Source: a virus
Reading direction: 5' to 3' (one strand)
DNA: 64,000 nt
IMG/VR virus record: IMGVR_UViG_3300046820_001062
Location: 32,001-96,000 of that record
Shown: piece after piece, positions 14,381-31,499 of the stretch
Position numbering within the stretch: position 1 is the first letter of the stretch
How the letters are laid out: the number at the start of each line of letters is the position of its first letter
Program-made: the position numbers and the translations under genes
The notes under the pieces: generated by a model
Databases searched by the model: none
What the model was told of the DNA's origin: nothing
The model's input: the letters and a program-made list of their open reading frames with translations, nothing else

Positions 14381-14398
14381 CTGGATGGTTTATTTTCT

Positions 14399-17023
14399 TT
14401 ATTGTCCTAATTCGTATTGTTTTCTCATATTGATGTAGTTATCAAAAGTTGAGTTAATTATCTCATTAGCTTTTAATAAACTGTTTACATCACCTGGTCT
14501 AAAAGGAATATATGATATTTTTTGCTCACGCTGTTTAGTTTGTGGATTGTAAATATCCATATTAAAAAGCAAAACAGGATTACCAGATGCATCTTGAGAA
14601 CCTTGGAGATTGTAATCAAAGTCATATCCTTTAAATGACTGTTCACCTTTCACATTAGCACCAGGATTAGTTAAGAACTCATCTAATAAACCTAATGACT
14701 GTGAAGATACAGAATTAATAGTTGCATATCTATTGATTCTACCCAATGCACTATTTGCACTTGCAGATTCATAAGGTAATACAAAGGTTAATGTACCTGG
14801 ATTTTTGATTCCAATCTTTTTACCAATTGGTGACTTCTGAGAAATGTTAACTTGAATATTTGCATTTTGACCATCATAACTAACAATAGCTTGATCCCCA
14901 AATAGGTCTGCTAAATCTGAAGTATTAAGATTTCTCAAAACACTCATATCAATTGTTGAACCATCAGATGATGTAATTGATTTAACAGCATATGGATTTC
15001 TAACCAATGTTTCAATTTCAGCAGCATTTAATTTGCTAAACTTGTAATTATTAGTTACAGGTCTTGTTCTACCTGCATATTCTGAAGTAACCAAAGTACC
15101 TAATCTTTCTTTTGCAGCAGGAGTTAAGTTTGTTAAATCTAAATCATAAGCTCCGTTAGCAAGTCTTCCTCTAATGACTGCACCTGCGTATTGTGATTTA
15201 ATTTTTCCGTCAGCATCCACAACTTCTTGAGATAATCTCAACATGTTTTTGTTAAGATTAATTCTTTCTGATTCTAATGTTTTAAAAGCATTTGATGCAC
15301 CTCTGAAACTTTCTACATATTTAGCAGAATCACCTGTTTTGTGCAACCTTGAATAAATTGGAAGTTTTTCAGTTGCTGCTTTGTAAGTATAACCAGCTAA
15401 TCCATCAACCAATCCAATAGCTTGTGCAGCTGTTGTTGGAGGTTGAATATTAATGCCTAGTTTATCACCAAACATTTTTAGAGTAGCTTTATCTTCTGCT
15501 GTCAAAGTAATTTTTTGACCAGCACCCATTTGTTTAATTCTGTTTATGGTATTATAAACATCAGAGTATGCTTTAGCATCTTCATTCAATACAAGTTTAA
15601 CCAAACCATTTTCTGCATTAAACGCTGTTGCAAAAGCTTTCTCTCTATTTACATTCATGCCTTTAGAAACAAGTTCAGCTCCACTTTGTGGTGTACCTAA
15701 ACCTTGTCCAATAAACTCTTCTGATGGTAGGTATCCTTTACCTTTTAATTCCATCATTTTAAGTTCAGTGGTAATACCAAACTTTTCTTTATCCCAAGCA
15801 AGTTTTTGTCCTTGCATTGCTAAGTTTGCTGCAGCAATTCTTTCACTAGATGCAATATGTGCTTTTGTAGCCCAAGTTGTATCTCCTCTATATTCAATAG
15901 ATTGTTTTGCAGTTGCAAATGTATTACCAAATACTTGTGCTGTATTTTCTCTTGCTTCTCTTGTAAACAAAGAATAAAGATTTGATGCTACATATTGTGG
16001 TCCTTCCTGTTGCATTTTTGCAATATCTGATTTAGAACCATCAAGTGTATTTTTATAATCATCTCTCTTTTTAAGCAATTCTTGGTAATCATCTTTAATG
16101 TGAGGCAATGATGGAGGAAATCCATTAGGATATTTCTTCTCATACAAAGCTATTTCATCATCAAGTTTTTTAAGTTCTTTATCTGCAGTTATTCCTTGTG
16201 TTGCAACCTTTTCATTTATAACTGGAAGTAGTTTCTCAGAAACTCTTTTAACAGCTTCTTCTCGTGAAATACCACTTGCAGACATTTCATTTCTTATTGT
16301 TGTTTCAGCTGCAACACGTCCCATTACTTGAAACTGTCTATCAAATCTGGTTCCCATTGTAGCTTTAGCCCACTCACTAAAAATAGGAGCAACGCCTGCA
16401 CCATTTACACGCTTAATTATATAACCTTTTCCATCAGGAGTAGCTTGTGTAATTTCTAAACCTTGTTCTTTTGCAGCTTTTCTAAGATACTCCATTGTAT
16501 CTTCAAAGGGAACAAACTCACGTGGTTGTACACTTTGCAATGAACCATCTCCTCTTTTAGCATTTCTCAAATCTTCTTCAGCAAAAGCAATATCCATTTT
16601 GCTATAGTCACTATACATAGCACGTATTTTTGGATCAGTACTATTTTTATACTGGTCCATCTTTTGTTTTTGTGCTTGATGGAATCTAGTTACTGCCATA
16701 TCATATGCTAAATCTTGATCCTGAGAAATAGGATCAATTAGACTTTGTGCACGCATGATATTGGTAGGATTAGAAAGGTCAACATTAGAAACACTTTTTA
16801 ATGCTCCTTGTAATTTCTTGAAAGCTTCTTGTCTAAACGATTCATTGTCTGAATTTGTCAATGAGCTATTCAAAACAGAATTGTAAAGATTTTTGACCAT
16901 GCTAAAACCACGATCATATTCAGCCTGTCTTGTGCCATATACCTGAGTCAAAAACTGATAATCAGGTTTGTACAACTGCATTGGACCAAATTGATCAGTA
17001 AGTCCTTTTATAAATGTTGCCAT
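14399..17023 (-). CDS. Virion cargo protein (874 aa), largely helical
   Basis: Long ORF in the cargo block between the muzzle and vRNAP genes. No catalytic motif recognised. Confidence 0.6.
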   Translation of the reverse strand: MATFIKGLTDQFGPMQLYKPDYQFLTQVYGTRQAEYDRGFSMVKNLYNSVLNSSLTNSDNESFRQEAFKKLQGALKSVSNVDLSNPTNIMRAQSLIDPISQDQDLAYDMAVTRFHQAQKQKMDQYKNSTDPKIRAMYSDYSKMDIAFAEEDLRNAKRGDGSLQSVQPREFVPFEDTMEYLRKAAKEQGLEITQATPDGKGYIIKRVNGAGVAPIFSEWAKATMGTRFDRQFQVMGRVAAETTIRNEMSASGISREEAVKRVSEKLLPVINEKVATQGITADKELKKLDDEIALYEKKYPNGFPPSLPHIKDDYQELLKKRDDYKNTLDGSKSDIAKMQQEGPQYVASNLYSLFTREARENTAQVFGNTFATAKQSIEYRGDTTWATKAHIASSERIAAANLAMQGQKLAWDKEKFGITTELKMMELKGKGYLPSEEFIGQGLGTPQSGAELVSKGMNVNREKAFATAFNAENGLVKLVLNEDAKAYSDVYNTINRIKQMGAGQKITLTAEDKATLKMFGDKLGINIQPPTTAAQAIGLVDGLAGYTYKAATEKLPIYSRLHKTGDSAKYVESFRGASNAFKTLESERINLNKNMLRLSQEVVDADGKIKSQYAGAVIRGRLANGAYDLDLTNLTPAAKERLGTLVTSEYAGRTRPVTNNYKFSKLNAAEIETLVRNPYAVKSITSSDGSTIDMSVLRNLNTSDLADLFGDQAIVSYDGQNANIQVNISQKSPIGKKIGIKNPGTLTFVLPYESASANSALGRINRYATINSVSSQSLGLLDEFLTNPGANVKGEQSFKGYDFDYNLQGSQDASGNPVLLFNMDIYNPQTKQREQKISYIPFRPGDVNSLLKANEIINSTFDNYINMRKQYELGQ

Positions 17024-17052
17024 GTGATATTTCTACTTTACTTTTAATTAAA

Positions 17053-20000
17053 TTATTGTTCTTCCCAAGGAGTAGCGTTAAAAGATGCTGGTAAGGTTGA
17101 ACCACTCATGTATGCTTGTTGAAAATTATTTCTCCATGTAGGTGTTTGTTTTGCAGTTTGCAAATACATATTAGACACCTGATCTGCATATTTTCTTGCA
17201 CTTTCTTCTCCTCTTGTTCCAACAGCTTCATCATATGCTTGCTTCCATGCTGCATTTGCAGTTTGTGTCATTGCAGCTGGGTTATATCCAGTCCCAACAC
17301 CACCTCTTCCTGCACCATATGGATTTTGATATACGTCAGGAGCCATACCAGTTCCTTCATCACCAAACATTTGTCTACCTTGCCCAGAAAAATCTACATC
17401 ACCTAAAATAGGATCAATATAAACTTGCGGGAATAATACATTCTCCATTTGTTTTTTTCTGAACCAGTTAGTTGTTCCATTATTAAATGCTGCAATTTCT
17501 CTCCATTTCTTTTGTTGTAAAGCATTGTCATATTGTTGATTCATGGTTGCCATGTCTTCAACATATTTTTGACGTGCTGTTTCATTACCAACAATTTCTT
17601 GGTTTTGAACTTGTGCACTATTATTGTAAGCTTGATTTACAATTCCAATATTTGCAGCCTCTGTTGTATCTAAAACATTTGCAGCATTAGCAAATCCTTC
17701 TCCAGATGCACCAAGCATTGTTGCTAGTCCCACATTACCATCAGCAGTATTCTCTACTTGATTTTGGTATCTTGCCATCTGTTCTTGATTAGCAGCAAGT
17801 TTTCTTGTAGGATCTAATAAGTCATATCCAGGTGTAACTAAATCAATTTTACCTTGTGTAGGTTCATAACGATTTACTTGATCTGTTACTGTACCAACAT
17901 AGTTTACAATGTCTTGTAGCCACCAAGGTCCTTCTTTTTTAGGTTGCTTTTCAAAAGTTTTAGTAGGAGTACTAATACATTGACCATCAACAACACCTTT
18001 ATCTTTTGAAGCAGCACCTACAGCTTTAATATTTGAACCAGAAGGTGCAACAGGTTGTTCACCTGTTTTATGAGAAACAGAAACAACATTCTTAGTACCA
18101 TCTGTATACTCAACACAGAAATAAGCAACTTCTTGTCCAGGTTGTTCTGGTGGTTTTGGAGCATCAAAAAATCTAGGTACAGAATAAGTTACTTGTCCAA
18201 ACTTAGAATCTCTATAATAAGGATTGTCTTCTTTTTTACCTTGACCTAGTGGTGTAAAGTATGGAACACCAAACTGCTTCATTGATTTTTCATTGATAGC
18301 ATCTTGGAACCAACCTGAAGCTTTATCTCCAGTAGCTTTTCCTGCTTTTAAATCTTTTTGAAATTGAGCAAAACCTCCAGCATATTGAGCATCAATCCAG
18401 TCACCATGTCTTCTTTGAAAATCAGACCATTCTTGTGGAGATAAATCTCCTGACTGTCTTGCTGCTGCATTACCAGATGATAAATAAATACCAGTACCTT
18501 TTACATTAGGTTGATTAGCAAATGAACCAAAGTTTGTTTCTGTATATAATACATTAGGGGAACCAGCTAAAATCTTATTAATGTTGGTAGAACCATATTG
18601 TTCAAATTGAGTATCAGTTCTAGGACCAGACATAATGATTGTACCATTGGCATCTTTCATTATTTTAGTTGCTCCTTTGTAGAAAAGATATCTTACTTCA
18701 CCTTTATCATTTGTAACAGTACCAACAGCAATTTCTTTATTTGGATCAATACGTTGATTACCAGCAGCTTGTGCTTGTTGCTGTGTTCCAACAGTAGTAT
18801 TTAATGTACCTGGTTGTGTTTGTTGAGGAGTACCTTGAACTGTTCCAGCATCTTGATACTGATTCAGTGTAGAACCACCATATCTAAATGATTTAAAAAT
18901 ATCAGCGTCACTTTTACCATTTACATTTTGTACTGGTGCTTTTTTAACTGGTTGTTCTGTCTCAGTTTTTGTTTTTGGTGGTGTTTCAGGTTTGTTTCCT
19001 GACACTTGCTTATTTAAATTAGCAACACTTTCAGAATTTGTTACATCACCCGTATTGCCACTTGTGTCTACATATGTCCATCCAGTTGATGAATTAGCAT
19101 CTTTATAGTAAGTGTATTTATCTCTACCAGCAATTTTATATTCTGTTCCAGTTGGTTTTGCTTTTTCAGTAATTCCATTACCATAAGGACCATATGCATC
19201 TGTTGTATTACCTGTTGCTTGTGCTGCAGGTTTTTGATTCATCCAATCCTTTTTAAAAGTAGCTAAAGGAATTACCTTGTAACCTCCATAAGTATCTGCA
19301 TATGAACCAATATTTTTATCAGGGTCTGAAATTTGTTTTACCTGTACAACAGCTCCGTCACTATCTGTTAATTTATTTTGAGTGACTTTATACTTTTTGT
19401 TACCTACTGTATAAACATCTCCAATTTTTGGCATTGTAGGATCTACAACTGGTTGTGTTGAAGCTGGTGCTGTAGCACTGTAATTTAAAGTATAGTATTT
19501 ATTACCTTGACCTGGAAGTGATACTGCTTGATTCATCCAACCCAAGTTTTTTATACTTGTGTAATAGTCAGGATCAATTAAAGCTTGACCTGCGTTATAA
19601 CCCAAATCAAGTTTTCCATTTTTTTGCATTTCAAGATAATCCTTTAAAGGAAGTTCTGTTATGGTGTCGCCATTTGATAGTTTAATAGCTTTATCAAAAG
19701 TTACCCATTCATCAGAACCTGCACCTGCAGTATCCCAAAAACCTTCATAACGTGATTTAATTTTGTATTCTTTACCATCAATGTAAAACTTCTCACCTAC
19801 TTTACCACCATTTTGATAATTTCTAACAAAGCCACCACGTTTCATTTCTTCTTGTCCTTCAAGAACTTCATGAGCAACACCTTCACTTTTTTCCATACCA
19901 GGCATTTGTGCACCTTGTAAACCAGCCATTACAGATTCAGCAATAGCAGGAACACCATCAGGAAATCCTTTCATTGATTCCTGTACTAAAGCAAGCATAC

Positions 20001-20493
20001 CCAATTTTTGAGTATTCTTTTTTAGCATTTCAGCAGCAGAACGTTTTTGAATAGCATCAGTGTCATCACTTTTTAAGTCTTGAACATACTGATTAATTTG
20101 ATATTTCTTTGCAATTTCCGCAGGAGTGTATCCACCTTTCTTTTCCTTCAATCCAAAAATAGTCTCAAGAACTTCTTTGTCTTTGATTCTTAATTTTTTA
20201 GTATCAGAAAATATAAAGGAACCTTCAGGAATATTTACAGGCATACCACCTTTAGAGTGACGTTTTCCAACAAATGTAAATTGTTCTAGAAAACCATCTC
20301 TATTGATATCACCAACTACTGTTTCACCACCCTCTACTTCAATGTTTGCTTCTTCTTTAGGAACAGCACCCATAGTATTTTTAACATTACTTGTGCCTTC
20401 ACCAGAATTAGTGAAACTAACATTTCTACCAACTAAACTATAATCTTGTTGGTCTCCAGGTTTTGGTGCTTTTTTGATTCTAATCTTTTGCAT
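17053..20493 (-). CDS. Virion cargo protein (1146 aa) with N-terminal EVEGGE...G.RH..GG...FSD module
   Basis: The N-terminal NIEVEGGETV...VGKRHSKGGMPVNIPEGSFIFSD resembles a module I associate with crAss-like cargo proteins. Also has low-complexity P/T/Q linkers, xxxGG motifs and a Q/N-rich helical C-terminus. Confidence 0.62.
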   Translation of the reverse strand: MQKIRIKKAPKPGDQQDYSLVGRNVSFTNSGEGTSNVKNTMGAVPKEEANIEVEGGETVVGDINRDGFLEQFTFVGKRHSKGGMPVNIPEGSFIFSDTKKLRIKDKEVLETIFGLKEKKGGYTPAEIAKKYQINQYVQDLKSDDTDAIQKRSAAEMLKKNTQKLGMLALVQESMKGFPDGVPAIAESVMAGLQGAQMPGMEKSEGVAHEVLEGQEEMKRGGFVRNYQNGGKVGEKFYIDGKEYKIKSRYEGFWDTAGAGSDEWVTFDKAIKLSNGDTITELPLKDYLEMQKNGKLDLGYNAGQALIDPDYYTSIKNLGWMNQAVSLPGQGNKYYTLNYSATAPASTQPVVDPTMPKIGDVYTVGNKKYKVTQNKLTDSDGAVVQVKQISDPDKNIGSYADTYGGYKVIPLATFKKDWMNQKPAAQATGNTTDAYGPYGNGITEKAKPTGTEYKIAGRDKYTYYKDANSSTGWTYVDTSGNTGDVTNSESVANLNKQVSGNKPETPPKTKTETEQPVKKAPVQNVNGKSDADIFKSFRYGGSTLNQYQDAGTVQGTPQQTQPGTLNTTVGTQQQAQAAGNQRIDPNKEIAVGTVTNDKGEVRYLFYKGATKIMKDANGTIIMSGPRTDTQFEQYGSTNINKILAGSPNVLYTETNFGSFANQPNVKGTGIYLSSGNAAARQSGDLSPQEWSDFQRRHGDWIDAQYAGGFAQFQKDLKAGKATGDKASGWFQDAINEKSMKQFGVPYFTPLGQGKKEDNPYYRDSKFGQVTYSVPRFFDAPKPPEQPGQEVAYFCVEYTDGTKNVVSVSHKTGEQPVAPSGSNIKAVGAASKDKGVVDGQCISTPTKTFEKQPKKEGPWWLQDIVNYVGTVTDQVNRYEPTQGKIDLVTPGYDLLDPTRKLAANQEQMARYQNQVENTADGNVGLATMLGASGEGFANAANVLDTTEAANIGIVNQAYNNSAQVQNQEIVGNETARQKYVEDMATMNQQYDNALQQKKWREIAAFNNGTTNWFRKKQMENVLFPQVYIDPILGDVDFSGQGRQMFGDEGTGMAPDVYQNPYGAGRGGVGTGYNPAAMTQTANAAWKQAYDEAVGTRGEESARKYADQVSNMYLQTAKQTPTWRNNFQQAYMSGSTLPASFNATPWEEQ

Positions 20494-20599: not shown

Positions 20600-23500
20600 T
20601 TAGTCAAGATATTCTATCTCTCCTCCCATTGCAAGAATGCGCTTAATCTCTTCTTCATCAGCATAAAACTCACCGCCTTCAGCATAGTGTCTAGTTGCTG
20701 GAATGAAAGGAATTAAACCACCATATCTAGCAGATGACATCTTAGTTCCAAAGTCTTGAATAGGGGTATTGGCAACTAAACCAAAATTAGAAGCAGGTCC
20801 TGCGTTTAATGTGTAATTACCAAAAGGATTAATAGCATTTTGAGGATTGTATCTGTTCATTGTGTTGCCAATTTCCTTCAATCTTTGTTCATATTCTTTT
20901 TGATAATCTTTAGCACCAAGTACTTGATTAACCATTCCTAATCCAGCAAGTGCATTATTAGCAGCAACAATACCTGCAGTATCACCACGTTTTGTTTGAG
21001 TAAATCCATTTGCTGTTGGTGAAGTAGTTCCAGGTTGTGCATTACCACCAGGTGTTTGAGCTGTTTCTACACCTCCCACACTTGTAGCTGTTGCAGGTGT
21101 GTTTGCAGCTTTAAAGCCAGCAAGATACTGCTGATAATCATTCATATCTCTACCTTCTTCACCCATAAGACCTCTACCATTTTGAGCCATCCATTCATCA
21201 TATGTTAATGGTGTATCACCACCATCTTGATATCTACGCATAGTACCACCATATCTAGCTAAATTCTCATAAGAAGGACCAGATGGATATCCACCATCAA
21301 AATCACCAGGACCCATAGGACCTGAAGGAATCATGTTATCTTTTCTTCTTTTCTCATTAAGAGGAGAATCCTGATACATTTCAGGAGATGACCAATCTTT
21401 CATAATAGCATCTTGTTTTTCTTTTCTTGCTTGTATTACATCTTGAAGTTTACCTGATTCTTGTGTTTCAGGGTTTACAACATATTCTGTGGTCTTTGGT
21501 TTTGCAAACAACTTCTCATAACCAAGAACTGCACCAGATAATCCAGCAGCAGCGCCAGCAATGCCTTTTACTGTACCAAGCAAACCTTTGTTAGGTAAAG
21601 CCCAAACCATTGATCTTGGATCTCCAAGTGAATTTGCTGCAGCCAAGCCTCTGTTCCAAGAATTATTCTTTAATGAATTAAGAGTATGTGATTCAGTTAC
21701 ATCAGTTCTTTGATCTCCTGCTGTATATGTATCATAATCATATGCTCCACCATCTTGCATTTTAGTTTTAGCCATTTCTAAAAACTTTTGCAAATCATAC
21801 TTAACACCTTCACGTTCAAAATCAGCCATCATGTTTTTAGCAATTTTTTGCCTGTTCTGTGGATCATTAACTTGTGTCAAGATATTTGCAATTCCTTCTA
21901 CCATTTCAACATCGTTTTCACCACCTTCTGCCCATGTACCAAAACGTTTATGCCAGTATAATGGACTGAATGGATCTTTTGCTTTTGCAGAATCTCTTCC
22001 ACCCATTCTATCCCAGAATCTGTCTTTGCGTTTCTCAGAACCATGTTGTTTAAAATCTTGCATTCCTTTCCATCCGCCATGCACCACTTTATACTGATCA
22101 CCTTTCTTTGCAAGAACCATCCATTTTTTACCAGGACGTGTTGACTGTTTTTTAACACCAACTTTTGTAAAGCCCATATTCTTATAGCGTGAAGGAATAG
22201 TTCCTCCTTCTGCCATTTCATAAAGTTGACCACCAAGTTCTTTTGCAAAGTTTCTAGCAAAGTTTGCTTTCTTAACCATTTCAGGTGAGTACTCTTCTTT
22301 ATTATTTAAAATATGTTCAGCAGCTTCTTGCACAGACATTCCCATTTTAGTTGCTTGTGCTTTAAATGTACCTTTTTTTCTAGGGTTTATTTTAATACCA
22401 CCATATTTCATTTCATCATCTGACTCTAATAATTCAGAAGAAGTATCTTCAATGTCTTCTGTATCTAAAGGAACATCTTCTTCTTCCATATCAGATTCTG
22501 CAATATCATTCATTGCTGATTGAATTATTCCTTGTCCTTGTTCTTCTGACAAACCTTGTTCCATTAACATCTTAAGAATATCATCAGGATTAGTTCCACC
22601 TTCTAACATCATGGAGATTTCTCCTAATGCATCATCAATATTTCCTGTCTTTTGTGATTCTTCAGATTCTTGTTGTTGAGGTTGCATTTCTCCACCATAT
22701 TGTTTTACATAGAAACCACCATCTGGTGCAGGCGCCCATGATTCACCACTTGCTAAAAATTCTTGATAGTTTGCAGGATTATTAGGATTACCAGAAGTAG
22801 CTACAGGTTTTCTTACTTGTGCAGCAATCTCTTGTTTCTTTCTAGCTAACATTGCCTCATCAAAAGCTTGTTGTTGTTGTGCTGTTGCGTTATCATAGTT
22901 TACAAACTTTTTAAGATTATCTGCTTGAGGTCCTGCAAAGTTTCTATTTGCAGATGCAAAATCAGAACCATAATCAGTTCTTACACCATTAATCTCAGTA
23001 CTAACTTTTGGTACCATTTGATTAAGAGTTTTTAATCCTAAGAATCCATCTACTCTAGAGATACCATTCTTAAAACTATTTGCTGTTTTAACACCCATTT
23101 GACCAGATGCAGTATTACCTGCAGCCATGTTTAAAAAGTAAGATTGATAGTCTTTTACTTTGTTACTATCAATTGCAGCATTAGGATTTTCTTGATTGTA
23201 TTTTTTAATCAATTCATATCCTAGTTTTTTATCATGATTGTATCTATCATCAGAAGCAGCACCACTTTTCTTTGCATACTTTACAAACTGATTCCAATTA
23301 TTAAGATCTTGTGGAGACAATGAATTTGTTTCAGGTTCTCCACCATATTCCATTTGACCACCACATTCCATACAACCACCATTCATCATTTCTGGAATAT
23401 AACCACCAAATGCATAATCACTTACTTCCATACCAAATTCTGCTTTTCTCCAGCTTCCACCTTTTTCTTTATACCATTTTGCAGCATAACCATTTGCGTA

Positions 23501-25132
23501 TGCAGAAGGATAGACATCATATTTAGATTTGGCAGCAGCCTTAGCTCTTGACCATAATTCAGGATTAGTAGGAACATTTCCTCCTTTTGCCATCATGTCT
23601 AGTTCATTATAATCTTTCATTGTAAAGTTGTTTTCTATTAAATTTTCTCCACCAAACTCATTTCTTTTATGATTATAGTCAATGCGTTTACTTGAAGTTT
23701 TTGATCTTTTAAATTTATCTTTTTCAGATTGACTTAATTCTGAAGCTGTTTTTGGTGTGTCACTGTTTACTCTTTTTGAAGGTCTACACGCAGGATAACC
23801 AGCACGTTTTTCTCCTTCTTGTCTTCCACACTCTTTTCCTGTTTTTACATCAATCCACTTCTCAGCAAACCATCTATCTAATCCACCATGTTGTCCTCCA
23901 TCTTTAGCGTAAGGACTAAATTGATTAGTTTCTTTTTTAGATATAGTATTTAACATGTCTACAATTTGTTTATCATTGTAAACATCTCTTAATTGTTCCA
24001 ATGGATCATACCCTGTTTTAATATGATCTTTATATTTTTTTAAAATTTCAAGTGTAACTTTTTGATTAAATGGATTATATAATCCTTGATTTTTTGCATT
24101 ATATCTAAAATTCAAAAGTCTAGCTCTTGTTTCTGTAGGATCAGCTACATAATTTTGAAACTCACTTAACTGTCTTTTTCCATCCTTACCATATGCATAG
24201 GTTTGTATTTTTTTCAAATCTGAATCTGGCATTAAATAACCAGATGCATCTGAAGCATGACCAAGTTCATGTACTAAAGTTTGATTAGCAGCATCTAAAT
24301 AAGACTCATCATGTAAATGTATATCATAATTATTTTTTGGAATAAGGGCTGCAATGCCTGCATACTTTTGAGAAGGTGCAAAAATATAACTGTTTAAACC
24401 AGTTTTACTAAACAAATCATTTGCACCTGTTAATTCATTTTTTCTTGTTGCAAAACCTGCCGTACCTGAATTTGGATCACTACTAGATTCTTTACTATCT
24501 AACTGTTTATTAAAGTTTTTAAATGTATGTACATTTACATTAGCTTGTTTAATTAAAGCGTTTCTGTCATTAATAATTTTATCAGCATATATGTAGTTTA
24601 TTCCAGAAGGATCATCTTTATCTACACTATCATATAACATTTGCTTACCCATGGCAGAGTTATTCCAATTGGTTAAAAACTGTCTTTCTGCAAATGCTTG
24701 ATTTGTTAATGGAGGCAGCATTCCTGCTTGTCTAAGTTTTCTTGTATCTGCATTTGGATTCAATGAGCTAGCACCACCATACTGCATTTTCCAATTAGAA
24801 GATGGTTGCTCTAATTCAGGTTGCATTGTATAATCAGTAGTTATTTCTGAACCTACAGGTAAATCTTGTGCAGCAACTAAATATCTTTGATTACCCTGTG
24901 CTATGCTAATAGCATTTGGTTCAAAAGAATGATTATGAAATTTTCCTATTTTACCAACAGGTTGTCCATTTGAATGAGCAAGTCCTATAACTTCACCTTC
25001 TCTTATGTTTTTATTTGTAAAAAGCCCTTTACCTTGAATTTTACTTTTATCAACAAAAACATTATTTTCTTCTTGAGCTTCTTGCGCCCTAGAAGAAATA
25101 AACTTCATCAATATTTTATTCTTATCATTCAT
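20600..25132 (-). CDS. Modular cargo polyprotein (1510 aa): SET domain, zincin-like domain, small basic modules, repeated xxxGG junctions
   Basis: SET motifs GKGLFT / FHNHSFEPN / EITTDY (aa ~25-101). HELGH at aa 288 with downstream ETRAR. About 18 (M/Y/W/A/K/L)-x-x-G-G motifs between modules. Start overlaps the muzzle stop (TAATG). Confidence 0.75.
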   Translation of the reverse strand: MNDKNKILMKFISSRAQEAQEENNVFVDKSKIQGKGLFTNKNIREGEVIGLAHSNGQPVGKIGKFHNHSFEPNAISIAQGNQRYLVAAQDLPVGSEITTDYTMQPELEQPSSNWKMQYGGASSLNPNADTRKLRQAGMLPPLTNQAFAERQFLTNWNNSAMGKQMLYDSVDKDDPSGINYIYADKIINDRNALIKQANVNVHTFKNFNKQLDSKESSSDPNSGTAGFATRKNELTGANDLFSKTGLNSYIFAPSQKYAGIAALIPKNNYDIHLHDESYLDAANQTLVHELGHASDASGYLMPDSDLKKIQTYAYGKDGKRQLSEFQNYVADPTETRARLLNFRYNAKNQGLYNPFNQKVTLEILKKYKDHIKTGYDPLEQLRDVYNDKQIVDMLNTISKKETNQFSPYAKDGGQHGGLDRWFAEKWIDVKTGKECGRQEGEKRAGYPACRPSKRVNSDTPKTASELSQSEKDKFKRSKTSSKRIDYNHKRNEFGGENLIENNFTMKDYNELDMMAKGGNVPTNPELWSRAKAAAKSKYDVYPSAYANGYAAKWYKEKGGSWRKAEFGMEVSDYAFGGYIPEMMNGGCMECGGQMEYGGEPETNSLSPQDLNNWNQFVKYAKKSGAASDDRYNHDKKLGYELIKKYNQENPNAAIDSNKVKDYQSYFLNMAAGNTASGQMGVKTANSFKNGISRVDGFLGLKTLNQMVPKVSTEINGVRTDYGSDFASANRNFAGPQADNLKKFVNYDNATAQQQQAFDEAMLARKKQEIAAQVRKPVATSGNPNNPANYQEFLASGESWAPAPDGGFYVKQYGGEMQPQQQESEESQKTGNIDDALGEISMMLEGGTNPDDILKMLMEQGLSEEQGQGIIQSAMNDIAESDMEEEDVPLDTEDIEDTSSELLESDDEMKYGGIKINPRKKGTFKAQATKMGMSVQEAAEHILNNKEEYSPEMVKKANFARNFAKELGGQLYEMAEGGTIPSRYKNMGFTKVGVKKQSTRPGKKWMVLAKKGDQYKVVHGGWKGMQDFKQHGSEKRKDRFWDRMGGRDSAKAKDPFSPLYWHKRFGTWAEGGENDVEMVEGIANILTQVNDPQNRQKIAKNMMADFEREGVKYDLQKFLEMAKTKMQDGGAYDYDTYTAGDQRTDVTESHTLNSLKNNSWNRGLAAANSLGDPRSMVWALPNKGLLGTVKGIAGAAAGLSGAVLGYEKLFAKPKTTEYVVNPETQESGKLQDVIQARKEKQDAIMKDWSSPEMYQDSPLNEKRRKDNMIPSGPMGPGDFDGGYPSGPSYENLARYGGTMRRYQDGGDTPLTYDEWMAQNGRGLMGEEGRDMNDYQQYLAGFKAANTPATATSVGGVETAQTPGGNAQPGTTSPTANGFTQTKRGDTAGIVAANNALAGLGMVNQVLGAKDYQKEYEQRLKEIGNTMNRYNPQNAINPFGNYTLNAGPASNFGLVANTPIQDFGTKMSSARYGGLIPFIPATRHYAEGGEFYADEEEIKRILAMGGEIEYLD

Positions 25133-28100
25133 TACCTTGAACTATTGAGATGTTTTGAATTTGTTAGTTTTAAAATCATTTTTTTATCACCACTTACATT
25201 CTTACGCAAGATTACTTTGTTACCATAGTGTCTAAACTTCTTATGTTCAGTAGGTGTCTTAAAGTAATTTACATAATCAGGATTAATTGTTCTTTCATAA
25301 CCTGAACATTTTGTAATCCACATAGGTGTGTCATTACCAGAAAACTCACCTCTATCTTTTGTAACATCCCAGAATTGATTAAATCTAAATCTATTTTCTT
25401 CTTTAGAATAAAGAATATCAATACCTGTTGTTGTTGCTTGTGGATAGTTTACTAAATCTAAAGGATTATTTTTACCTTTAAGTTTCAGTTTAAGTAATCC
25501 AGACATTTGCTCAGAGTTATGTATAATAGCTCTGTCAAAGTTTTCATCTAAGATATGATTAAAATCTTTACCATCATTGAAGAATTTATAAACGTCTAGT
25601 GTGTATTCAATACTTCTTAATGTAGTGATGTTATTAGGTGTTGTCACAGGGTATTCTACTTCCCATGGATAATCTACACCATAGTAGTTAGCAAAACTAT
25701 CCCAGCGATCATTGTGTTTCCAAAATCCTCTACCTTTAATTGTAAAGAAGTGTTCATGTGACGGCATCAACAAACTAGGTTTCCAATCATGGAAACTAAT
25801 CCATAACTTTTGTTTAGGATCATAACTGATAGTCCAACCACATGGTTTAAAACATTTAGGATCATCATAAGCACAAGGGCATTTGATAATTGTAGGCTTA
25901 TTTACAATAACTTCTAATTCACATATTGTACTTTGATCTCCTCTAACACTAATCAAACTATAAGTAGTAGTTGCTGTTGGTGTTACAATCATTGAATCTA
26001 CAGGGTTAACTGTATAATTACCAGGCATCAATGTAACTGAATCTGGATTACCTGTTACAGACCAAGTTAAATTGATTGATTCTCCTTCATTTATAACATA
26101 AGGAACAGAATCAAATGTGCACTCTAAAGTAACAGGAGGACATGGAACATTTAAAATTGTATCTGATATAATACTACCTACTATACCAGTTGCAGCTTGA
26201 CTTTTTGTACCACCTGTAGTATTTGCATAGATGTCATGAATTAAAGATATGGTAGGAGCAACTGATGGACTAGTTACACCAACACCTGTTGCAATTGGAA
26301 ATATTTTAATATCTGCTGCTGCAGCATTGTTTGCAATAGTCTGTGCATTAACATCGTCTTGACCAACAACATAGTAATCATCTGTACCAGATGGTCTAGC
26401 ATCTGTAATCATAATGATTAACTTAATAGCATCTGTCCTAAATGTACCTGCGTCACCATCAACTGCCATTTGAATACCAACATCTGTTGGTTCTGGTTCA
26501 TTACAACCATTACCTAAAGTTACTGCTTGTAATGCTGCATTAAAAGCTGTTATGTTATTAGCTGACATTGAATGCCTAACCACGTTGTCTAATGCACAAG
26601 TTTGATTTACAGTGATTAATCCAAATCTGTAATCATTGTTTGATTTTGTTACAGCATCTGCAGCAATGTTTGATATACTAGTTTTTAAGTTATTCAATAC
26701 ACCACCCATACTACCAGTAATATCTAACACAAAAACCAAATCTAATGGTGCAGTACAGAATACAGGTTCTTCAGCCATTAGCATCATAGCTGGTCTACCA
26801 GCAACAGATATTTCACCTAATGTTCCTTGTAATGATATTGATGGTGTTTCTCCGCATGAATACACAGGAGTAACAGAAATTTTATAATGTGAATCTAAGT
26901 TTAGGGTTTCACTTTGTGGAACAGAACCTGAAAAATAGTTTATAGTTGAAGGTATAGTATAAGTATTTGCAGGATAACTTAATGTTTCTCCTTTCATAAA
27001 TGTACTATAGGTATAGTCACCCATAAAGCTATCATAAGTTCCTAACCAAATCTGAATAAGATATTGCTGTGGATTTTCTTGATTTGATGCTAATGTGGGA
27101 TGACTCCAATCTACAGTAACAGTTCCATCTTCATTTAGCCCACCTACAGTCATAGATGTAATTTGTGTTGGTACACATTCAGAAGGAGTACTACCGCCAC
27201 CTGTAGTTCCACATATGTAATATGGTACACCAGATGGATCATCAAAATGTAAATCTGATCTCAAAGGAACGTAGTCTTTCTTAGTAAAGTATACTAATTC
27301 ATACTGAGGATCATAAATAGACTGTACACCAATACCTGCAACAGGGTTGTCATAAAGTGGATAATCAGGATATTGACGTAGTAACTCTGAAGGTAAGTTT
27401 TCTGCAAACCAGAATTTCATACCATTTCTAGATATCTCATCAAGACTGCCGGCATAATGCATAATTTTACCTGACTTCTGAGAAGCATAAAATAAACCAT
27501 GTGGAGTATTTACAGCTGATCTTGAAGAAATACATGCACCATATTCTAATGCGTCATCAGCATTAGTAAGACTTTGCATGTTTTGTTGGAATAATCCACC
27601 ATCACCAATTGTAATTTTAACACCACCTTTAGTCTGTAATTGATCAACACCTACAAATTGTGTAGGTTCTGCATTCTCAAATAATATTACAGCACCTGTG
27701 CCATTTAAAGATTTTATTGTGCTGATTTTTCCTCCAAAATCTTTATAGTTAAGTGGTAAAAAGTTTCTCCAGTTATCTCGTTTGAGACCTGACTGCTGTT
27801 GGAGAGAGTACACTCCACGTTTAGGGTAGTACTCAAAACATGTGCTATATATGGTTGGGTCATAGTCTCTTGGGAGAATTTGTCCCCAGGTAGCAAAGTT
27901 GTTGAACAGTTTGGATGTGCTAAGTGATAAGTCATACTTGTTATAAATTGGTTTGGTAATCAAATCTGATCTGAACATCAATTGCTCATCATTAAATGAA
28001 TTACCATATACATCATAGAACTTTTGAAAATCTTCCTCACCATAGTCTCTAAAAGCCATGTTAAGTTCAGACTCTGTGTAAAAATCTCTGATACCATTAT

Positions 28101-31100
28101 GAAATAAATATGCAAAACACTTTCTTAAAGTCCATGTACCAGTTCCACCAGCTCTGTCCATTCTATGAAAACTACTTGGTGTTGTAAAATTTAATTGTGG
28201 TACAATTCCCAAAAATCCTCCTAATGATATATTCATGTCAAAGTCTGTTGTATCAAACTTATCATAATCAATCCAATATCTTGGAGCAGGGCCATTTACA
28301 TAATTTCTATAATTGTACTCAGTAGTATTTGGCATGTCAAACATCCATGTGTTAAAGAACATGTATGGATTTTTTTCAGTGTATCTGTTAATATAGATAT
28401 CACCACCAAATATAACAGAAGTGTTATACTTTGTTATTAACTGAGGAGTTGTTGAATATATACATGAATCTGTTGGCAATTGAACAATAGAACTCAATTG
28501 ACCATACTGATTTTCAAAATCAACTTTTAATGCACCATAATAAGCAACAGTATTTGTTGTAATAGAATCTTTAACAGGATTAGAACGATCAATGCCACCA
28601 TCCTGAACTCTATGTTTTGTATTATCAGTAGTTGAAGAAACATCTGGTAAATCTGATGTTAACTTGACAGCTACATATTTGTTTCTATTTAGATTGTTAA
28701 TTCTATATGTGGCATCAAAATCATGAATACCTGAACCAATATATTTAGCTCCTGAATCTGCAACTTTTCTTCTAAAGGCTCTTGGTAAACCAGAAGGAAC
28801 AGATGAGTTAGAAACAGGTGAGTATGAATCATAAAAACCATGACTGTTATATTGAAGCATGTACTGTCTTTCTTTACCAAGTTTTCTAAAAATTTCTAAA
28901 ACTTGATCTGTACCTTGCCCCCAATAGTATGCTCCTGAAGCAATCATCACAGCAATACCTGCAATTGTTGTTGCCACACTACCAGATCCCCAAACACTCA
29001 ATGCACTTGTTGCTCCACCTAAAATAAGATCTCCTATTGCAGAAGCTGGTCCTGATTCTCTTGATGCTTCAGCGCCACCCAAATAAGCACCTGTACCTAG
29101 AGCTAATGCCCAAGGATCATTTTTTGCAGTGTATGTAGTTTTACCTACAGCTGCTACTAAAGCAATACCTAAACCAATAATTCCAGCAGTTACAAAAGCA
29201 CCATCTGTTAAGATTACATGTTTAGGATGTTTATGAGGATATTCAAACTTACCAATTACTTTACCTCTTTCCTCTGTGTATATTTTAACATAGTTTGAAC
29301 CAATGTATGGTTTAACAAAATTTGTTTCTACAGCATGAAATGATAAATAATTTCTCTTATGAGTATCTAATTTTGATGCAGATTCTACGCCAGATTGACT
29401 TCCTTTTCCTTCATCAAGAATAGAATAGTCATTACTTAAGAAGTTATCAGGTCTAATATCATTGTAAGGATAGTTTTGAAATAATCCTTTTCTACCAGTA
29501 CTACCTTGAATATCAAACTCAAACATGTTGTTAAATAAACCTTTAGCAACAATAGTTCTATTTCCTTCTCTTGAACCCCTTAATATCTCATAACCTACAA
29601 TATCTTTGATTGCTTTTAAATCCTCGTCAACTGGATGTTGTATGTTTGAAAATTGAACACCAAGATTATAAATATAATCACCACCTTGACTATGAATATG
29701 AATTGTTTCATTAGAAGGCATTTTGTGGTGTCTAATTGGTTTACCACATAGTGTACCCCATACTTCAGGTTTATCATCTGGATATTTTTCAGTTGATTCC
29801 CAGTATGCCATATCACCTTTAGCAATAATAACACCGCCATCTTTGGTTGTACCAGATGCTAAATATTTTGTAGCAGTATCATATACTTGCCAAACTTGAG
29901 TTTCGTTTGAATAAACAACATCTGATGTTGACACAGAAGCTGTATCAGCAGGAGTTGCTAATCTACCAGGAATATGAAAAGAAGCACTTCTTGCACCAGT
30001 TTTGTATACCCATCTAATAAAGAATGCATACACTTCATCACGCATGTATCCTGTAACATTACCGCCATTGTGATAATATGAAGAAGGATATTGTGCAGCA
30101 ACCCATTCTACTTTGATATCATTTGCTTGTTTCTGATAATTAAAATAAGGTTGAGTAGTTACCCCAGTTCTGATAAGATAGTTATTGACAGAGTGCATTT
30201 TCTCACTCTTTTCATAAACTACAGATTTTAAAGGTATTACTGCAAGTTCAACTGTTGGTAAACTTTGATTATATAAGTCAAGATGTACTGATGTTTGTCT
30301 AATTGAATAGTTACCAATTTTTTTAGCAATAGTTTGCTGATTAATTACAGCAATAACAACAAGTTCATATTCATCATAATCCTTGTCTAAGTTCTCTATT
30401 GTAATATCTAATGCACCACCTATTCCAGTATGATCCCACAATGCTTGTGGTTGACTTGGAATAGAATAGTCAGTAAGTCTTATTCCATTTTCAGAATAAG
30501 CTACAACAGCCATGTAACTACCATTATTTAACTGACCAGCTCCTTGAGCCTTTTTTACAGTAACGCAAGGTTGTGTTACAAGAGGATGTAATCTTATAGC
30601 ATCGCAATCTAGCTCTGTGGTATATTCAGGAATAAAACAATCCTCATCTTGTGATAAGTTGTTACCTGTAGTTTTATATGGAACCCTATCAAGATTTAAT
30701 ACTCTATCAGGATTTAAATTGTCTTGAAAATATGTTGAATAAGTACAGTCATAGTTTTCCTTTGTGACTGCAGTAATCAAATGTGTTTTTTTAAAACCAA
30801 GACATGGATCATTTACAACTTTTGTATATGAACAATCTCTTTCATCAAAGATACCTATCTCTGATGAAACATCATTTGTAGAGAATATAACCCAAGATGT
30901 TTTAGACTTGTGAGAAATACCAATAACATCATAAGTTGCGTTTACACAAAACTTATTAGAAGGTTCATTTCCTATGGAACCAGTCTCACCATAGTGAGCA
31001 TTGTTAATAGCATTTACCGCATTAGTCCAAAGACCTTCTGAAATGTAAATATCAGTATAGTCTTTGACCATACCTTTATTAAAGGCATTTGTCTTGGCAG

Positions 31101-31128
31101 CACTTGTATTTGTAAAATTCTCGCTCAT
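25132..31128 (-). CDS. Muzzle / tail stabilisation protein (P22 gp10-like position) with inserted FN3-like, VWA and Ig/PKD-like domains (1998 aa)
   Basis: Starts with NAFNKGMVKD, typical of tail-stabilisation beta-propeller proteins. Ends with WTISY...WISFHDW.P and FNQFWD. Lies after the ring/tubular genes and before the cargo genes as in crAss-like phages. VWA MIDAS-like DLVFVLDITGSMG at ~26742-26704. Confidence 0.8.
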   Translation of the reverse strand: MSENFTNTSAAKTNAFNKGMVKDYTDIYISEGLWTNAVNAINNAHYGETGSIGNEPSNKFCVNATYDVIGISHKSKTSWVIFSTNDVSSEIGIFDERDCSYTKVVNDPCLGFKKTHLITAVTKENYDCTYSTYFQDNLNPDRVLNLDRVPYKTTGNNLSQDEDCFIPEYTTELDCDAIRLHPLVTQPCVTVKKAQGAGQLNNGSYMAVVAYSENGIRLTDYSIPSQPQALWDHTGIGGALDITIENLDKDYDEYELVVIAVINQQTIAKKIGNYSIRQTSVHLDLYNQSLPTVELAVIPLKSVVYEKSEKMHSVNNYLIRTGVTTQPYFNYQKQANDIKVEWVAAQYPSSYYHNGGNVTGYMRDEVYAFFIRWVYKTGARSASFHIPGRLATPADTASVSTSDVVYSNETQVWQVYDTATKYLASGTTKDGGVIIAKGDMAYWESTEKYPDDKPEVWGTLCGKPIRHHKMPSNETIHIHSQGGDYIYNLGVQFSNIQHPVDEDLKAIKDIVGYEILRGSREGNRTIVAKGLFNNMFEFDIQGSTGRKGLFQNYPYNDIRPDNFLSNDYSILDEGKGSQSGVESASKLDTHKRNYLSFHAVETNFVKPYIGSNYVKIYTEERGKVIGKFEYPHKHPKHVILTDGAFVTAGIIGLGIALVAAVGKTTYTAKNDPWALALGTGAYLGGAEASRESGPASAIGDLILGGATSALSVWGSGSVATTIAGIAVMIASGAYYWGQGTDQVLEIFRKLGKERQYMLQYNSHGFYDSYSPVSNSSVPSGLPRAFRRKVADSGAKYIGSGIHDFDATYRINNLNRNKYVAVKLTSDLPDVSSTTDNTKHRVQDGGIDRSNPVKDSITTNTVAYYGALKVDFENQYGQLSSIVQLPTDSCIYSTTPQLITKYNTSVIFGGDIYINRYTEKNPYMFFNTWMFDMPNTTEYNYRNYVNGPAPRYWIDYDKFDTTDFDMNISLGGFLGIVPQLNFTTPSSFHRMDRAGGTGTWTLRKCFAYLFHNGIRDFYTESELNMAFRDYGEEDFQKFYDVYGNSFNDEQLMFRSDLITKPIYNKYDLSLSTSKLFNNFATWGQILPRDYDPTIYSTCFEYYPKRGVYSLQQQSGLKRDNWRNFLPLNYKDFGGKISTIKSLNGTGAVILFENAEPTQFVGVDQLQTKGGVKITIGDGGLFQQNMQSLTNADDALEYGACISSRSAVNTPHGLFYASQKSGKIMHYAGSLDEISRNGMKFWFAENLPSELLRQYPDYPLYDNPVAGIGVQSIYDPQYELVYFTKKDYVPLRSDLHFDDPSGVPYYICGTTGGGSTPSECVPTQITSMTVGGLNEDGTVTVDWSHPTLASNQENPQQYLIQIWLGTYDSFMGDYTYSTFMKGETLSYPANTYTIPSTINYFSGSVPQSETLNLDSHYKISVTPVYSCGETPSISLQGTLGEISVAGRPAMMLMAEEPVFCTAPLDLVFVLDITGSMGGVLNNLKTSISNIAADAVTKSNNDYRFGLITVNQTCALDNVVRHSMSANNITAFNAALQAVTLGNGCNEPEPTDVGIQMAVDGDAGTFRTDAIKLIIMITDARPSGTDDYYVVGQDDVNAQTIANNAAAADIKIFPIATGVGVTSPSVAPTISLIHDIYANTTGGTKSQAATGIVGSIISDTILNVPCPPVTLECTFDSVPYVINEGESINLTWSVTGNPDSVTLMPGNYTVNPVDSMIVTPTATTTYSLISVRGDQSTICELEVIVNKPTIIKCPCAYDDPKCFKPCGWTISYDPKQKLWISFHDWKPSLLMPSHEHFFTIKGRGFWKHNDRWDSFANYYGVDYPWEVEYPVTTPNNITTLRSIEYTLDVYKFFNDGKDFNHILDENFDRAIIHNSEQMSGLLKLKLKGKNNPLDLVNYPQATTTGIDILYSKEENRFRFNQFWDVTKDRGEFSGNDTPMWITKCSGYERTINPDYVNYFKTPTEHKKFRHYGNKVILRKNVSGDKKMILKLTNSKHLNSSR

Positions 31129-31499
31129 TACTCTTTGATGTTGTAATTTTTCTGACGTAATACTTTATAAATTGTCTCAGTCAAGTGACCAACTAACCAT
31201 GCAGTAGATTCTTCATCTGTGATGTTAATGTCAGTTAATATTCTAACTGCTAAATGGTATACCTCATGTGATATAAGATTGATTGTAAGTTTATCTTCTT
31301 CATATACAATGTAGTATTCTAAACCATTTTTACCAGGCATATCAAACACACATCCATAACTATCTGTAACATCAACTAATGACTTAGTTTTTTTATCAAT
31401 ATAGTCTTGCATATCCTGCATGCTTTCTACAACACGTAGATTTACTACTGCATCATAAATAGCAAGGTTTATTTTTTTTTTAAATATTTTTGCAGCCAT
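31128..31499 (-). CDS. Small HExxH metallopeptidase-like protein (123 aa)
   Basis: LISHEVYHL followed by DEESTAWLVGHL, a zincin-type HExxH plus downstream Glu. TAATG-coupled to both neighbours. Confidence 0.55.
   Translation of the reverse strand: MAAKIFKKKINLAIYDAVVNLRVVESMQDMQDYIDKKTKSLVDVTDSYGCVFDMPGKNGLEYYIVYEEDKLTINLISHEVYHLAVRILTDINITDEESTAWLVGHLTETIYKVLRQKNYNIKE

What the first reader, a model, noticed from the sequence alone, without database searches (positions are those of the whole stretch)
20600..25132. Cargo polyprotein punctuated by ~18 xxxGG motifs at module boundaries
Seen: MQYGG, AKDGG, NEFGG, MAKGG, YAFGG, MMNGG, MEYGG, KQYGG, MKYGG, KELGG, MAEGG, WAEGG, MQDGG, ARYGG (x2), YQDGG, YAEGG and LAMGG. 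They fall immediately before or after recognisable modules (SET, zincin, basic modules, acidic helical blocks), often in tandem pairs, and one sits 6 residues from the C-terminus. Established: Gly-Gly is the cleavage signature of adenain ((M/L/I)xGG), ASFV polyprotein processing and ubiquitin/SUMO-type proteases. Inference: this is a virion-packaged cassette of independent effectors released by a GG-specific protease, or the motif is a repeated capsid-loading/ejection signal that lets the phage add or swap payloads.
Basis: partly seen in the sequence, partly recalled or inferred. Interest (0 to 1): 0.85.

Follow-up and report, generated by a model that had tools for sequence, protein, structure and literature searches.

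The report
Gly-Gly seams in phage cargo protein
A 1510-residue protein that this crAss-like phage most likely packs into its particle and injects is a string of small swappable modules (including a SET methyltransferase and a zinc protease-like domain) joined by one short, strongly conserved peptide ending in Gly-Gly; the pattern is real and apparently undescribed, but nothing yet shows that the joints are cut.

Summary
ORF 20600-25132 (-) has 28 GG dipeptides against 14 expected, and all 18 listed motifs are present. They share a consensus: hydrophobic (mostly Met) at -3, then x, x, G, G, then often Glu/Gln and [IV]-Pro. No other ORF of the 123.7-kb genome has such a series.

Local-alignment ends against 150 relatives fall on the motifs (67% within 6 residues, 20% expected). 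Modules occur in different orders in relatives. AlphaFold places the junction motifs in low-confidence stretches between confident modules. The junction glycines are 88-100% conserved where their neighbours are 3-50% conserved.

The gene follows a muzzle-like gene in a crassvirus tail module, which is the position of PhicrAss001 cargo protein C1 (gp45). gp45 carries the same motif.

The protease reading is not supported. No CE-clan, C39 or prohead protease was found. In the published PhicrAss001 structure one such motif (425-428) is ordered and uncut at the edge of the portal-bound domain. Three HExxH domains, one inside this protein, remain candidates for cutting after ejection.

My best reading is a carrier-plus-passengers cargo protein with uncut junction or handle peptides. 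This scan has met the same tag in at least seven other genomes, and the docking-versus-cutting question was left open each time.

The parts
20600..25132 (-). Whole ORF, 1510 aa (P0001): modular cargo protein at the C1 position
   Evidence: synteny
25067..25132 (-). N-terminal leader (res 1-22), shared with orthologues that lack SET and zincin
24788..25066 (-). SET domain module (res 23-115), closed by the junction at 116-120. It travels as a unit in P0008 and P0092
   Evidence: Pfam PF00856 E 3.8e-7
23909..24772 (-). Zincin-like metallopeptidase module (res 121-408, HELGH at 288), absent from orthologue L001
   Evidence: AF2 pLDDT 70-97; VIA Z 6.4-6.7 to PepO, Zmp1, PPEP-2 and lethal factor
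23663..23893 (-). DUF5872 basic module (res 414-490, net charge +9); a free-standing small ORF in other phages
23417..23578 (-). phrog_27331 helical module (res 519-572); a free-standing ORF in L005 and cyanophages
23339..23416 (-). Cluster of four GG in 26 residues (res 573-598); pLDDT 31-42
22730..23338 (-). Block 599-801, absent from L001. The indel is bounded by junction motifs at 594-598 and 810-814
22412..22690 (-). Acidic helical block (res 815-907, net charge -28)
22244..22396 (-). Module 913-963 (phrog_20603), shared with C1-position proteins of gut Crassvirales and weakly with crAss001 gp45 374-419
21935..22201 (-). DUF5754 basic module (res 978-1066, net charge +16); the commonest shared unit
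21761..21919 (-). Helical module 1072-1124. It lies at the N-terminus instead in P0002, P0004, P0006 and P0007
20603..21745 (-). Conserved C-terminal carrier block (res 1130-1510). It has two Gly/Ala-rich hydrophobic helices (1184-1202, 1387-1405) and a conserved 20-residue C-terminal tail
17053..20493 (-). Neighbouring 1146-aa protein with two tandem junction pairs of the same kind
   Evidence: synteny
25132..31128 (-). Upstream muzzle-like protein (1998 aa) that fixes the cargo position
   Evidence: phrog_37948; weak match to crAss001 gp44; VWA insert

Best explanation
P0001 is the C1-type cargo (ejection) protein of a marine or aquatic crAss-like phage, built as a carrier with passengers.

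The carrier is a short N-terminal leader plus a conserved C-terminal third. That third has two Gly/Ala-rich hydrophobic helices and a conserved terminal peptide. I infer that it provides packaging near the portal and membrane insertion on ejection.

The middle is a string of small, independently folding passenger modules: SET methyltransferase, zincin, the basic DUF5872, phrog_27331 and DUF5754 modules, and acidic helices. Each joint is a standard junction peptide, single or as a pair 6-7 residues apart: hydrophobic, x, x, G, G, then often E/Q and [IV]-P.

I take the junctions to stay uncut in the virion. They would act as flexible seams and probably as short recognition handles, so that any module inserted between two of them is carried into the capsid and threaded out bead by bead.

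Shown: the motif, its conservation, its place at module borders, module shuffling, and the gene's position.
Inferred: virion packaging, the handle function, and the lack of cutting.
For: - The motif is real and specific to this protein. It recurs across 150 relatives: 2485 GG against 1274 expected, Met at -3 enriched 5.3-fold.
- Alignment ends fall on the motifs. Modules are reordered, gained and lost exactly there.
- AF2 gives pLDDT 31-60 at junctions and 85-96 at in-module GG.
- Junction glycines are 0.88-1.00 conserved while the -1 and -2 positions are 0.03-0.5 conserved. This argues for recognition rather than a mere spacer.
- The crassvirus context is supported by CrAss_Ring_2, a muzzle-like gene upstream, and conserved synteny.
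- C1-position proteins of crAss001, cr127_1 and Rudgehvirus are also GG-enriched, while their neighbours are not.
- In crAss001 the resolved gp45 segments start at or just after such motifs (214-245 after GG 209-210; 425-552 including AFGG 425-428). The authors model one chain spanning tail and capsid (PMC10172136).
- 111 of 151 relatives end in one of two conserved C-terminal peptides whatever their modules.
- The same modules are separate small ORFs in unrelated phages. This fits passengers that do not need the carrier for their own function.
Against: - No binding partner for the junction peptide is known or predicted.
- Strong conservation of G-G with a preferred Glu/Gln after it, and depletion of N-degron residues at +1 (16% against 29%), would also suit a cleavage site.
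- Three HExxH domains lie in the same late module.
- The crAss001 argument rests on one site, in a distant relative, in the virion state only. P0001 has no PF25725 portal-binding domain.
- Packaging of P0001 itself is inferred from position alone.
Confidence: 0.5

Rival explanations
1. The junction peptides are cleavage sites. The protein would be packaged whole and cut into free effectors, most plausibly after ejection, by a virion-borne zincin or by a host protease. Candidate zincins are the domain at residues 121-408, the HExxH domain of the 3773-aa giant protein, and the 123-aa HExxH protein. This is the self-processing proposed for polyvalent proteins with MPTase domains.
For: - G-G is near-invariant with variable flanks.
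- Glu/Gln are preferred and N-degron residues depleted at +1.
- A zincin fold with HELGH lies inside the protein, and two more HExxH proteins lie in the late module.
- The modules exist as free small proteins in other phages, starting where the junction ends.
- Iyer et al. 2017 propose MPTase-driven processing of polyvalent proteins (PMC5512222). Drobysheva et al. expect cleavage of fused vRNAP polyproteins.
Against: - No cysteine or serine protease family known to cut after Gly-Gly, or to mature proheads, is found.
- The orthologue L001 keeps every junction but lacks the in-cis zincin.
- The giant HExxH protein itself has no junction motifs.
- gp45 AFGG 425-428 is ordered and continuous with its domain in crAss001 virions.
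- No zincin is known to prefer Gly-Gly at P2-P1.
- 16% of sites would still expose Y, F, L, K or R.
Confidence: 0.3
2. The motif is a passive evolutionary and structural seam. It would be a glycine hinge plus a hydrophobic cap that lets neighbouring mini-domains fold independently. It would spread because cassettes are copied together with their flanks, and nothing would recognise it.
For: - Junctions lie in low-confidence, probably flexible segments.
- Cassettes move with their flanking motifs, and indels are bounded by duplicated motifs.
- There is no DNA-level signal beyond ordinary Gly codon usage.
Against: - A plain hinge would tolerate G-S, S-G or Pro/Thr-rich linkers, yet both glycines are 88-100% conserved.
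- Positions -3, +1 and +2/+3 carry information across hundreds of diverged sites.
- Pairs have a fixed 6-7 residue spacing with their own consensus.
- Half-motifs occur at protein termini, where no hinge is needed.
Confidence: 0.15

Closest known systems
Cargo protein C1 (gp45) of Bacteroides phage PhicrAss001 (PMC10172136; PDB 7QOG, 7QOI, 7QOJ, 7QOL, 8CKB)
   Same: - Same gene position after the muzzle protein.
- GG-enriched (21 against 13.3), with motifs of the same kind at 209, 263, 332, 373, 427, 447 and 562.
- One shared module (P0001 911-961 with gp45 374-419).
- A Gly-rich hydrophobic helix.
- The resolved segments begin at the motifs.
   Different: - No PF25725 portal-binding domain.
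- Pairwise similarity is marginal (E 0.011).
- The hydrophobic helices are C-terminal here and N-terminal in gp45.
- gp45 carries no SET, zincin, DUF5872 or DUF5754 module.
- The junction motif is not mentioned in the paper (no 'cleav' or 'proteol' in its text).
Polyvalent proteins of phages and conjugative elements (Iyer, Burroughs, Anand, de Souza, Aravind 2017, PMC5512222)
   Same: - Many unrelated effector-type domains in one polypeptide.
- Encoded among virion genes.
- Highly variable architecture between relatives.
- A zincin-like peptidase among the domains.
- Proposed delivery with the DNA.
   Different: - That paper describes no conserved junction peptide ('glycine' has 0 occurrences) and does not treat crAss-like phages.
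- Most modules here are tiny (50-90 aa) basic domains of unknown function, not the enzymes catalogued there.
Gly-Gly-processed virion polyproteins of adenovirus (adenain) and ASFV (pS273R on pp220/pp62)
   Same: A virion-packaged precursor with many sites ending in G-G, a hydrophobic residue upstream, and basic core-type modules between sites.
   Different: - Hydrophobic residue at P5, not P4.
- No CE-clan protease in the genome.
- No evidence of cutting.
- Different virus realm.
T4 internal proteins with capsid-targeting sequence cut by the gp21 prohead protease
   Same: Short terminal peptides that address passenger proteins to the capsid interior for injection. Some relatives start with a 12-residue peptide that ends in G-G.
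   Different: - No S77, S78 or S49 protease.
- The T4 signal is N-terminal only and ends in Glu.
- Here the peptide is mostly internal and repeated.

Membership tests
Crassvirus cargo protein C1 (crAss001 gp45, Pfam PF25725 crAss_CARG1) | Gene lies directly after the muzzle gene in a crassvirus tail/cargo module | tested here: met
   CrAss_Ring_2 at 32614-33285; the 1998-aa upstream protein hits phrog_37948 and crAss001 gp44; the order is kept in L001 and L030
Crassvirus cargo protein C1 (crAss001 gp45, Pfam PF25725 crAss_CARG1) | Portal-binding domain matched by PF25725 | tested here: not met
   No hit in P0001 at E <= 1, nor anywhere in the genome at E <= 10
Crassvirus cargo protein C1 (crAss001 gp45, Pfam PF25725 crAss_CARG1) | Sequence homology to gp45 or to C1-position proteins of classified Crassvirales | tested here: inconclusive
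   One 50-residue module only: E 0.011 to gp45; E 1e-6 to 2e-11 to cr128_1, cr108_1, cr127_1, Rudgehvirus and Dulem virus 41
Crassvirus cargo protein C1 (crAss001 gp45, Pfam PF25725 crAss_CARG1) | Protein is present inside the virion | not testable with these tools
   Uncultured IMG/VR genome; no proteomics
Polyvalent proteins (Iyer et al. 2017) | Several unrelated domains in one polypeptide of a phage, with architecture varying between relatives | tested here: met
   SET, zincin, DUF5872 and DUF5754 plus at least 6 further modules; reordering in relatives
Polyvalent proteins (Iyer et al. 2017) | Zincin-like (MPTase-type) peptidase domain | tested here: inconclusive
   HELGH and a zincin fold at Z 6.4-6.7, but no Pfam family at E <= 1. 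Membership of the MPTase clade itself was not tested
Adenain/ASFV-type GG-processed polyprotein | Site consensus (M/L/I)-x-G-G with the hydrophobic residue at P4 | tested here: not met
   Hydrophobic residue at P5 (three before the first G) in this protein and in 150 relatives; P4 is A/Q/K/E/R
Adenain/ASFV-type GG-processed polyprotein | Virus encodes a CE-clan cysteine protease | tested here: not met
   PF00770 and PF02902: no match at E <= 1 in the 98%-complete genome. A very divergent member cannot be excluded
Adenain/ASFV-type GG-processed polyprotein | Precursor is cut after G-G in particles | not testable with these tools
   The only indirect data are from crAss001: gp45 425-428 is ordered. 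Peptide-mass fingerprints of its gel bands did not detect gp45
Double-glycine leader / C39 peptidase system | C39 peptidase domain encoded with the substrate | tested here: not met
   PF03412: no match at E <= 1
Prohead-protease-processed internal proteins (T4 IP, phiKZ inner body) | Prohead protease of the S77, S78 or S49 type in the genome | tested here: not met
   PF03420, PF04586 and PF01343: no match at E <= 1

The most novel reading that the evidence does not exclude
The junction peptide is the recognition site of a virion-carried zincin that stays silent in the capsid and fires after ejection. That would make crassvirus C1 proteins self-processing effector polyproteins. It would be the first Gly-Gly-type polyprotein processing system in a tailed phage, and a plug-in platform by which these phages deliver interchangeable early effectors, here a SET methyltransferase and several small basic DNA- or RNA-binding modules.
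Probability: 0.25. Interest if true: 0.85.

Novelty: new variant of a known kind. Interest (0 to 1): 0.6.

Why it matters
Crassviruses are among the most abundant phages known. How they load and deliver their roughly 5 MDa of cargo protein is an open question raised by the PhicrAss001 structure.

A conserved junction peptide that marks every module border gives three things:
- a sequence rule for parsing these otherwise unannotatable proteins into modules;
- a catalogue of what such phages inject, here including a SET-domain methyltransferase, a zincin, and families such as DUF5872 and DUF5754 that are also found in cyanophages and giant viruses;
- a sharply testable hypothesis (cut or uncut, handle or hinge) with simple experiments.

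It also suggests a natural way to load foreign proteins into phage particles.

Tried and rejected
1. Peptide-mass fingerprinting of the published PhicrAss001 gel bands (PMC6235969, supplement 14). The method worked: bands 3-9 resolve to gp50+gp47, gp49, gp20, gp26+gp22, gp22+gp25, gp25 and gp23. However, gp45 never exceeded chance (4 peaks in band 5, about 2.5 expected), and bands 11-13 are not held. This gives no evidence on the size of gp45.
2. The supplement of PMC10172136 holds no peptide table.
3. Foldseek of both AF2 models against the PDB found nothing at E <= 0.001. Only VIA-align gave the zincin series.
4. The ESM Atlas search on the zincin part gave only unnamed viral clusters and a weak LPD23 lead at 0.86.
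5. Pfam scans of ten small structural-module ORFs found no protease.
6. A DNA-level signal was rejected. The GG codons follow the ORF's ordinary GGT/GGA usage and have no shared flanking bases, so this is not a recombination or Shine-Dalgarno-like element.
7. An N-terminal connector as an enriched signal was rejected. GG occurs within the first 25 residues in 36 of 159 relatives, against 32 expected.
8. P0127 as a 'free-standing' 242-aa form was rejected. Its contig has a masked run, and the true ORF is longer.
9. Megablast of the structural block found no near relative among deposited phages.
10. The SET part folded poorly because few homologues were aligned, so its assignment rests on Pfam and its motifs only.


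Full report
**What is there.** The window is the late (virion) arm of a 123.7-kb, 98%-complete uncultured virus genome. All large ORFs lie on the minus strand:
- terminase (50454-52652), portal (47702-50431) and major head protein (44629-46278);
- a CrAss_Ring_2 tail-barrel protein (32614-33285);
- a 1998-aa protein (25132-31128) that matches phrog_37948 and, weakly, the muzzle protein gp44 of PhicrAss001, and carries a VWA insert;
- then five very large ORFs.

The finding's ORF (20600-25132, 1510 aa, P0001) is the first ORF after the muzzle-like gene. That is the place of cargo protein C1 (gp45) in PhicrAss001 (PMC10172136). The order muzzle, P0001, 1146-aa, 874-aa, 1474-aa is kept in related contigs L001 and L030.

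**The observation.**
- All 18 listed motifs are present.
- GG occurs 28 times against 14.1 expected (sd 3.5).
- The sites share more than G-G. Met is at -3 in 9 of 28 sites (background 3.6%), Tyr/Asp/Glu is at -1, and Glu is at +1.
- No other ORF of the genome shows such a series.
- There is no common DNA word behind it.

**The family.** A full HMMER scan with residues 393-1510 found 4064 proteins at E <= 0.001.
- In the best 150, GG is twice as frequent as expected (2485 against 1274).
- The consensus is the same: -3 is Met (5.3-fold), Tyr, Trp or Phe; -2 is Ala, Gln, Lys, Glu or Arg; +1 is Glu (3.6-fold at junction-type sites) or Gln; +2/+3 is [IV]-Pro.
- Motifs often come in pairs 6-7 residues apart, with their own consensus.

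**Are they at module borders?** Yes, by three independent lines.
1. Alignment ends. Of 524 internal BLAST alignment ends, 67% lie within 6 residues of a GG, against 20% for circular shifts (4 of 2000 shifts reach this). Every heavily supported border (408, 572, 601, 909, 972, 1072, 1129) is at a motif; only 1097 is not.
2. Module movement.
   - Residues 1069-1131 are N-terminal in P0002, P0004, P0006 and P0007.
   - The SET unit 1-120 ends at its motif in P0008 and P0092.
   - Orthologue L001 lacks SET plus zincin and the 599-801 block, and both indels are bounded by motifs.
   - L002 spreads the same modules over two adjacent ORFs.
3. Predicted structure. AlphaFold of residues 393-1135 gives pLDDT 31-60 at the junction motifs and 85-96 in the modules. 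Four other GG (558, 845, 1019, 1044) are turns inside confident modules.

The junction glycines are 0.88-1.00 conserved among relatives below 75% identity. Positions -1 and -2 are 0.03-0.5 conserved, and non-junction GG (1280, 1353, 1362) are not conserved.

**The modules.**
- SET: Pfam E 3.8e-7, with the NHS and C-terminal Tyr motifs visible.
- Zincin: HELGH at 288, AF2 pLDDT 70-97. Nearly all of the top 50 VIA-align matches are zinc metallopeptidases or related HExxH metallohydrolases (the top three, PepO, Zmp1 and PPEP-2, at Z 6.5-6.7).
- DUF5872, DUF5754, phrog_27331 and phrog_20603.
- The basic modules carry net charges of +9, +3, +5 and +16. An acidic helical block carries -28.
- In an unrelated phage type (L005 and about 15 similar contigs) the same basic modules are separate small ORFs in a row. 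They begin where the junction ends here.
- The last 380 residues are collinear in about 30 relatives. They contain two Gly/Ala-rich hydrophobic helices and a conserved tail.
- 111 of 151 relatives end in one of two conserved C-terminal peptides regardless of module content.
- The GG six residues from the end belongs to this tail. It is G-Y or G-A in other clades.

**Link to known crassviruses.** Module 911-961 matches C1-position proteins of cr128_1, cr108_1, cr127_1, Rudgehvirus and Dulem virus 41, and weakly gp45 374-419. Those proteins are GG-enriched while their neighbours are not:
- cr127_1: 14 against 6.7;
- Rudgehvirus gene49: 16 against 4.1;
- gp45: 21 against 13.3.

In PhicrAss001 the two resolved gp45 segments are 214-245 (tail barrel) and 425-552 (portal-bound). 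With the PDB numbering confirmed, the first starts four residues after GG 209-210. The second includes the motif A-F-G-G at 425-428.

**Cut or not.**
- I found no CE-clan, C39, S77, S78 or S49 protease in the genome.
- The hydrophobic position differs from the adenain rule.
- The ordered A-F-G-G in crAss001 argues against cutting after that G-G in the virion. So does the authors' single-chain model spanning tail and capsid.
- Cutting after ejection is not excluded. HExxH occurs in exactly three proteins, all in this module (P0001, the 3773-aa giant and a 123-aa ORF).
- Residues that would create N-degrons are depleted at +1.
- Processing by zincins has been proposed for polyvalent proteins and for fused vRNAP polyproteins.
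- Against an in-cis role: L001 keeps all junctions without the zincin.
- My attempt to size gp45 from published MALDI peak lists was inconclusive.

**Verdict.** The cassette and payload-swapping reading is supported. The GG-protease reading is unsupported but still possible.
- Best reading (0.5): a carrier-plus-passengers C1-type cargo protein whose junction peptides remain uncut in the particle and act as seams and probably handles.
- Rival (0.3): cleavage sites used after ejection.
- Rival (0.15): a passive seam that nothing recognises.

I found no description of the motif in the papers read. Earlier follow-ups of this scan reached the same open question on other genomes.

Noticed in passing
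window 25132-31128 (-): The muzzle-like 1998-aa protein carries a von Willebrand A domain (residues about 1463-1615) not present in crAss001 gp44. It may be an adhesin insert at the tail tip.
   Followed up: partly
window 31128-31499 (-): A 123-aa ORF with an HExxH motif (HEVYH at 78) sits immediately upstream of the muzzle gene and has no Pfam family. With P0001 and the 3773-aa giant protein (HEAFH at 984), it is one of only three HExxH proteins in the genome.
   Followed up: partly
window 17053-20493 (-): The 1146-aa neighbour has two tandem junction pairs of the same kind around a variable centre. The second G-G of one pair is A-G.
   Followed up: partly
L005:5807-6789 (and L003-L020): In an unrelated, higher-GC phage type, four of the small basic modules are separate ORFs of 56-109 aa in a row, just after a scaffold-like gene. 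This suggests they are internal or early proteins there too.
   Followed up: no
relatives P0002-P0151: Most relatives end in one of two conserved C-terminal peptides: a helix, then G-[GYA], then a strand ending in an acidic residue; or an N-W-L-D-x-Y type. Four relatives start with the N-W-L-D-K-[FY] peptide followed by G-G, so the same short peptide can cap either end.
   Followed up: partly
window 33933-35279 (-): A 448-aa ORF inside the tail module matches phrog_704 'DNA repair exonuclease' (E 1.7e-47). That is an odd place for a nuclease, so it may be a calcineurin-like phosphoesterase fold used structurally.
   Followed up: no
L028:4497-5941: The contig has a masked N run inside the cargo gene. 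The 242-aa 'protein' P0127 in the public collection is therefore an artefact of a broken ORF.
   Followed up: yes
genome G000 14331-19058 (outside the window): A 1575-aa Gly-rich protein carries 6 motif-like sites, but its GG count equals expectation (28 against 27.5). This looks like composition, not the junction tag.
   Followed up: no
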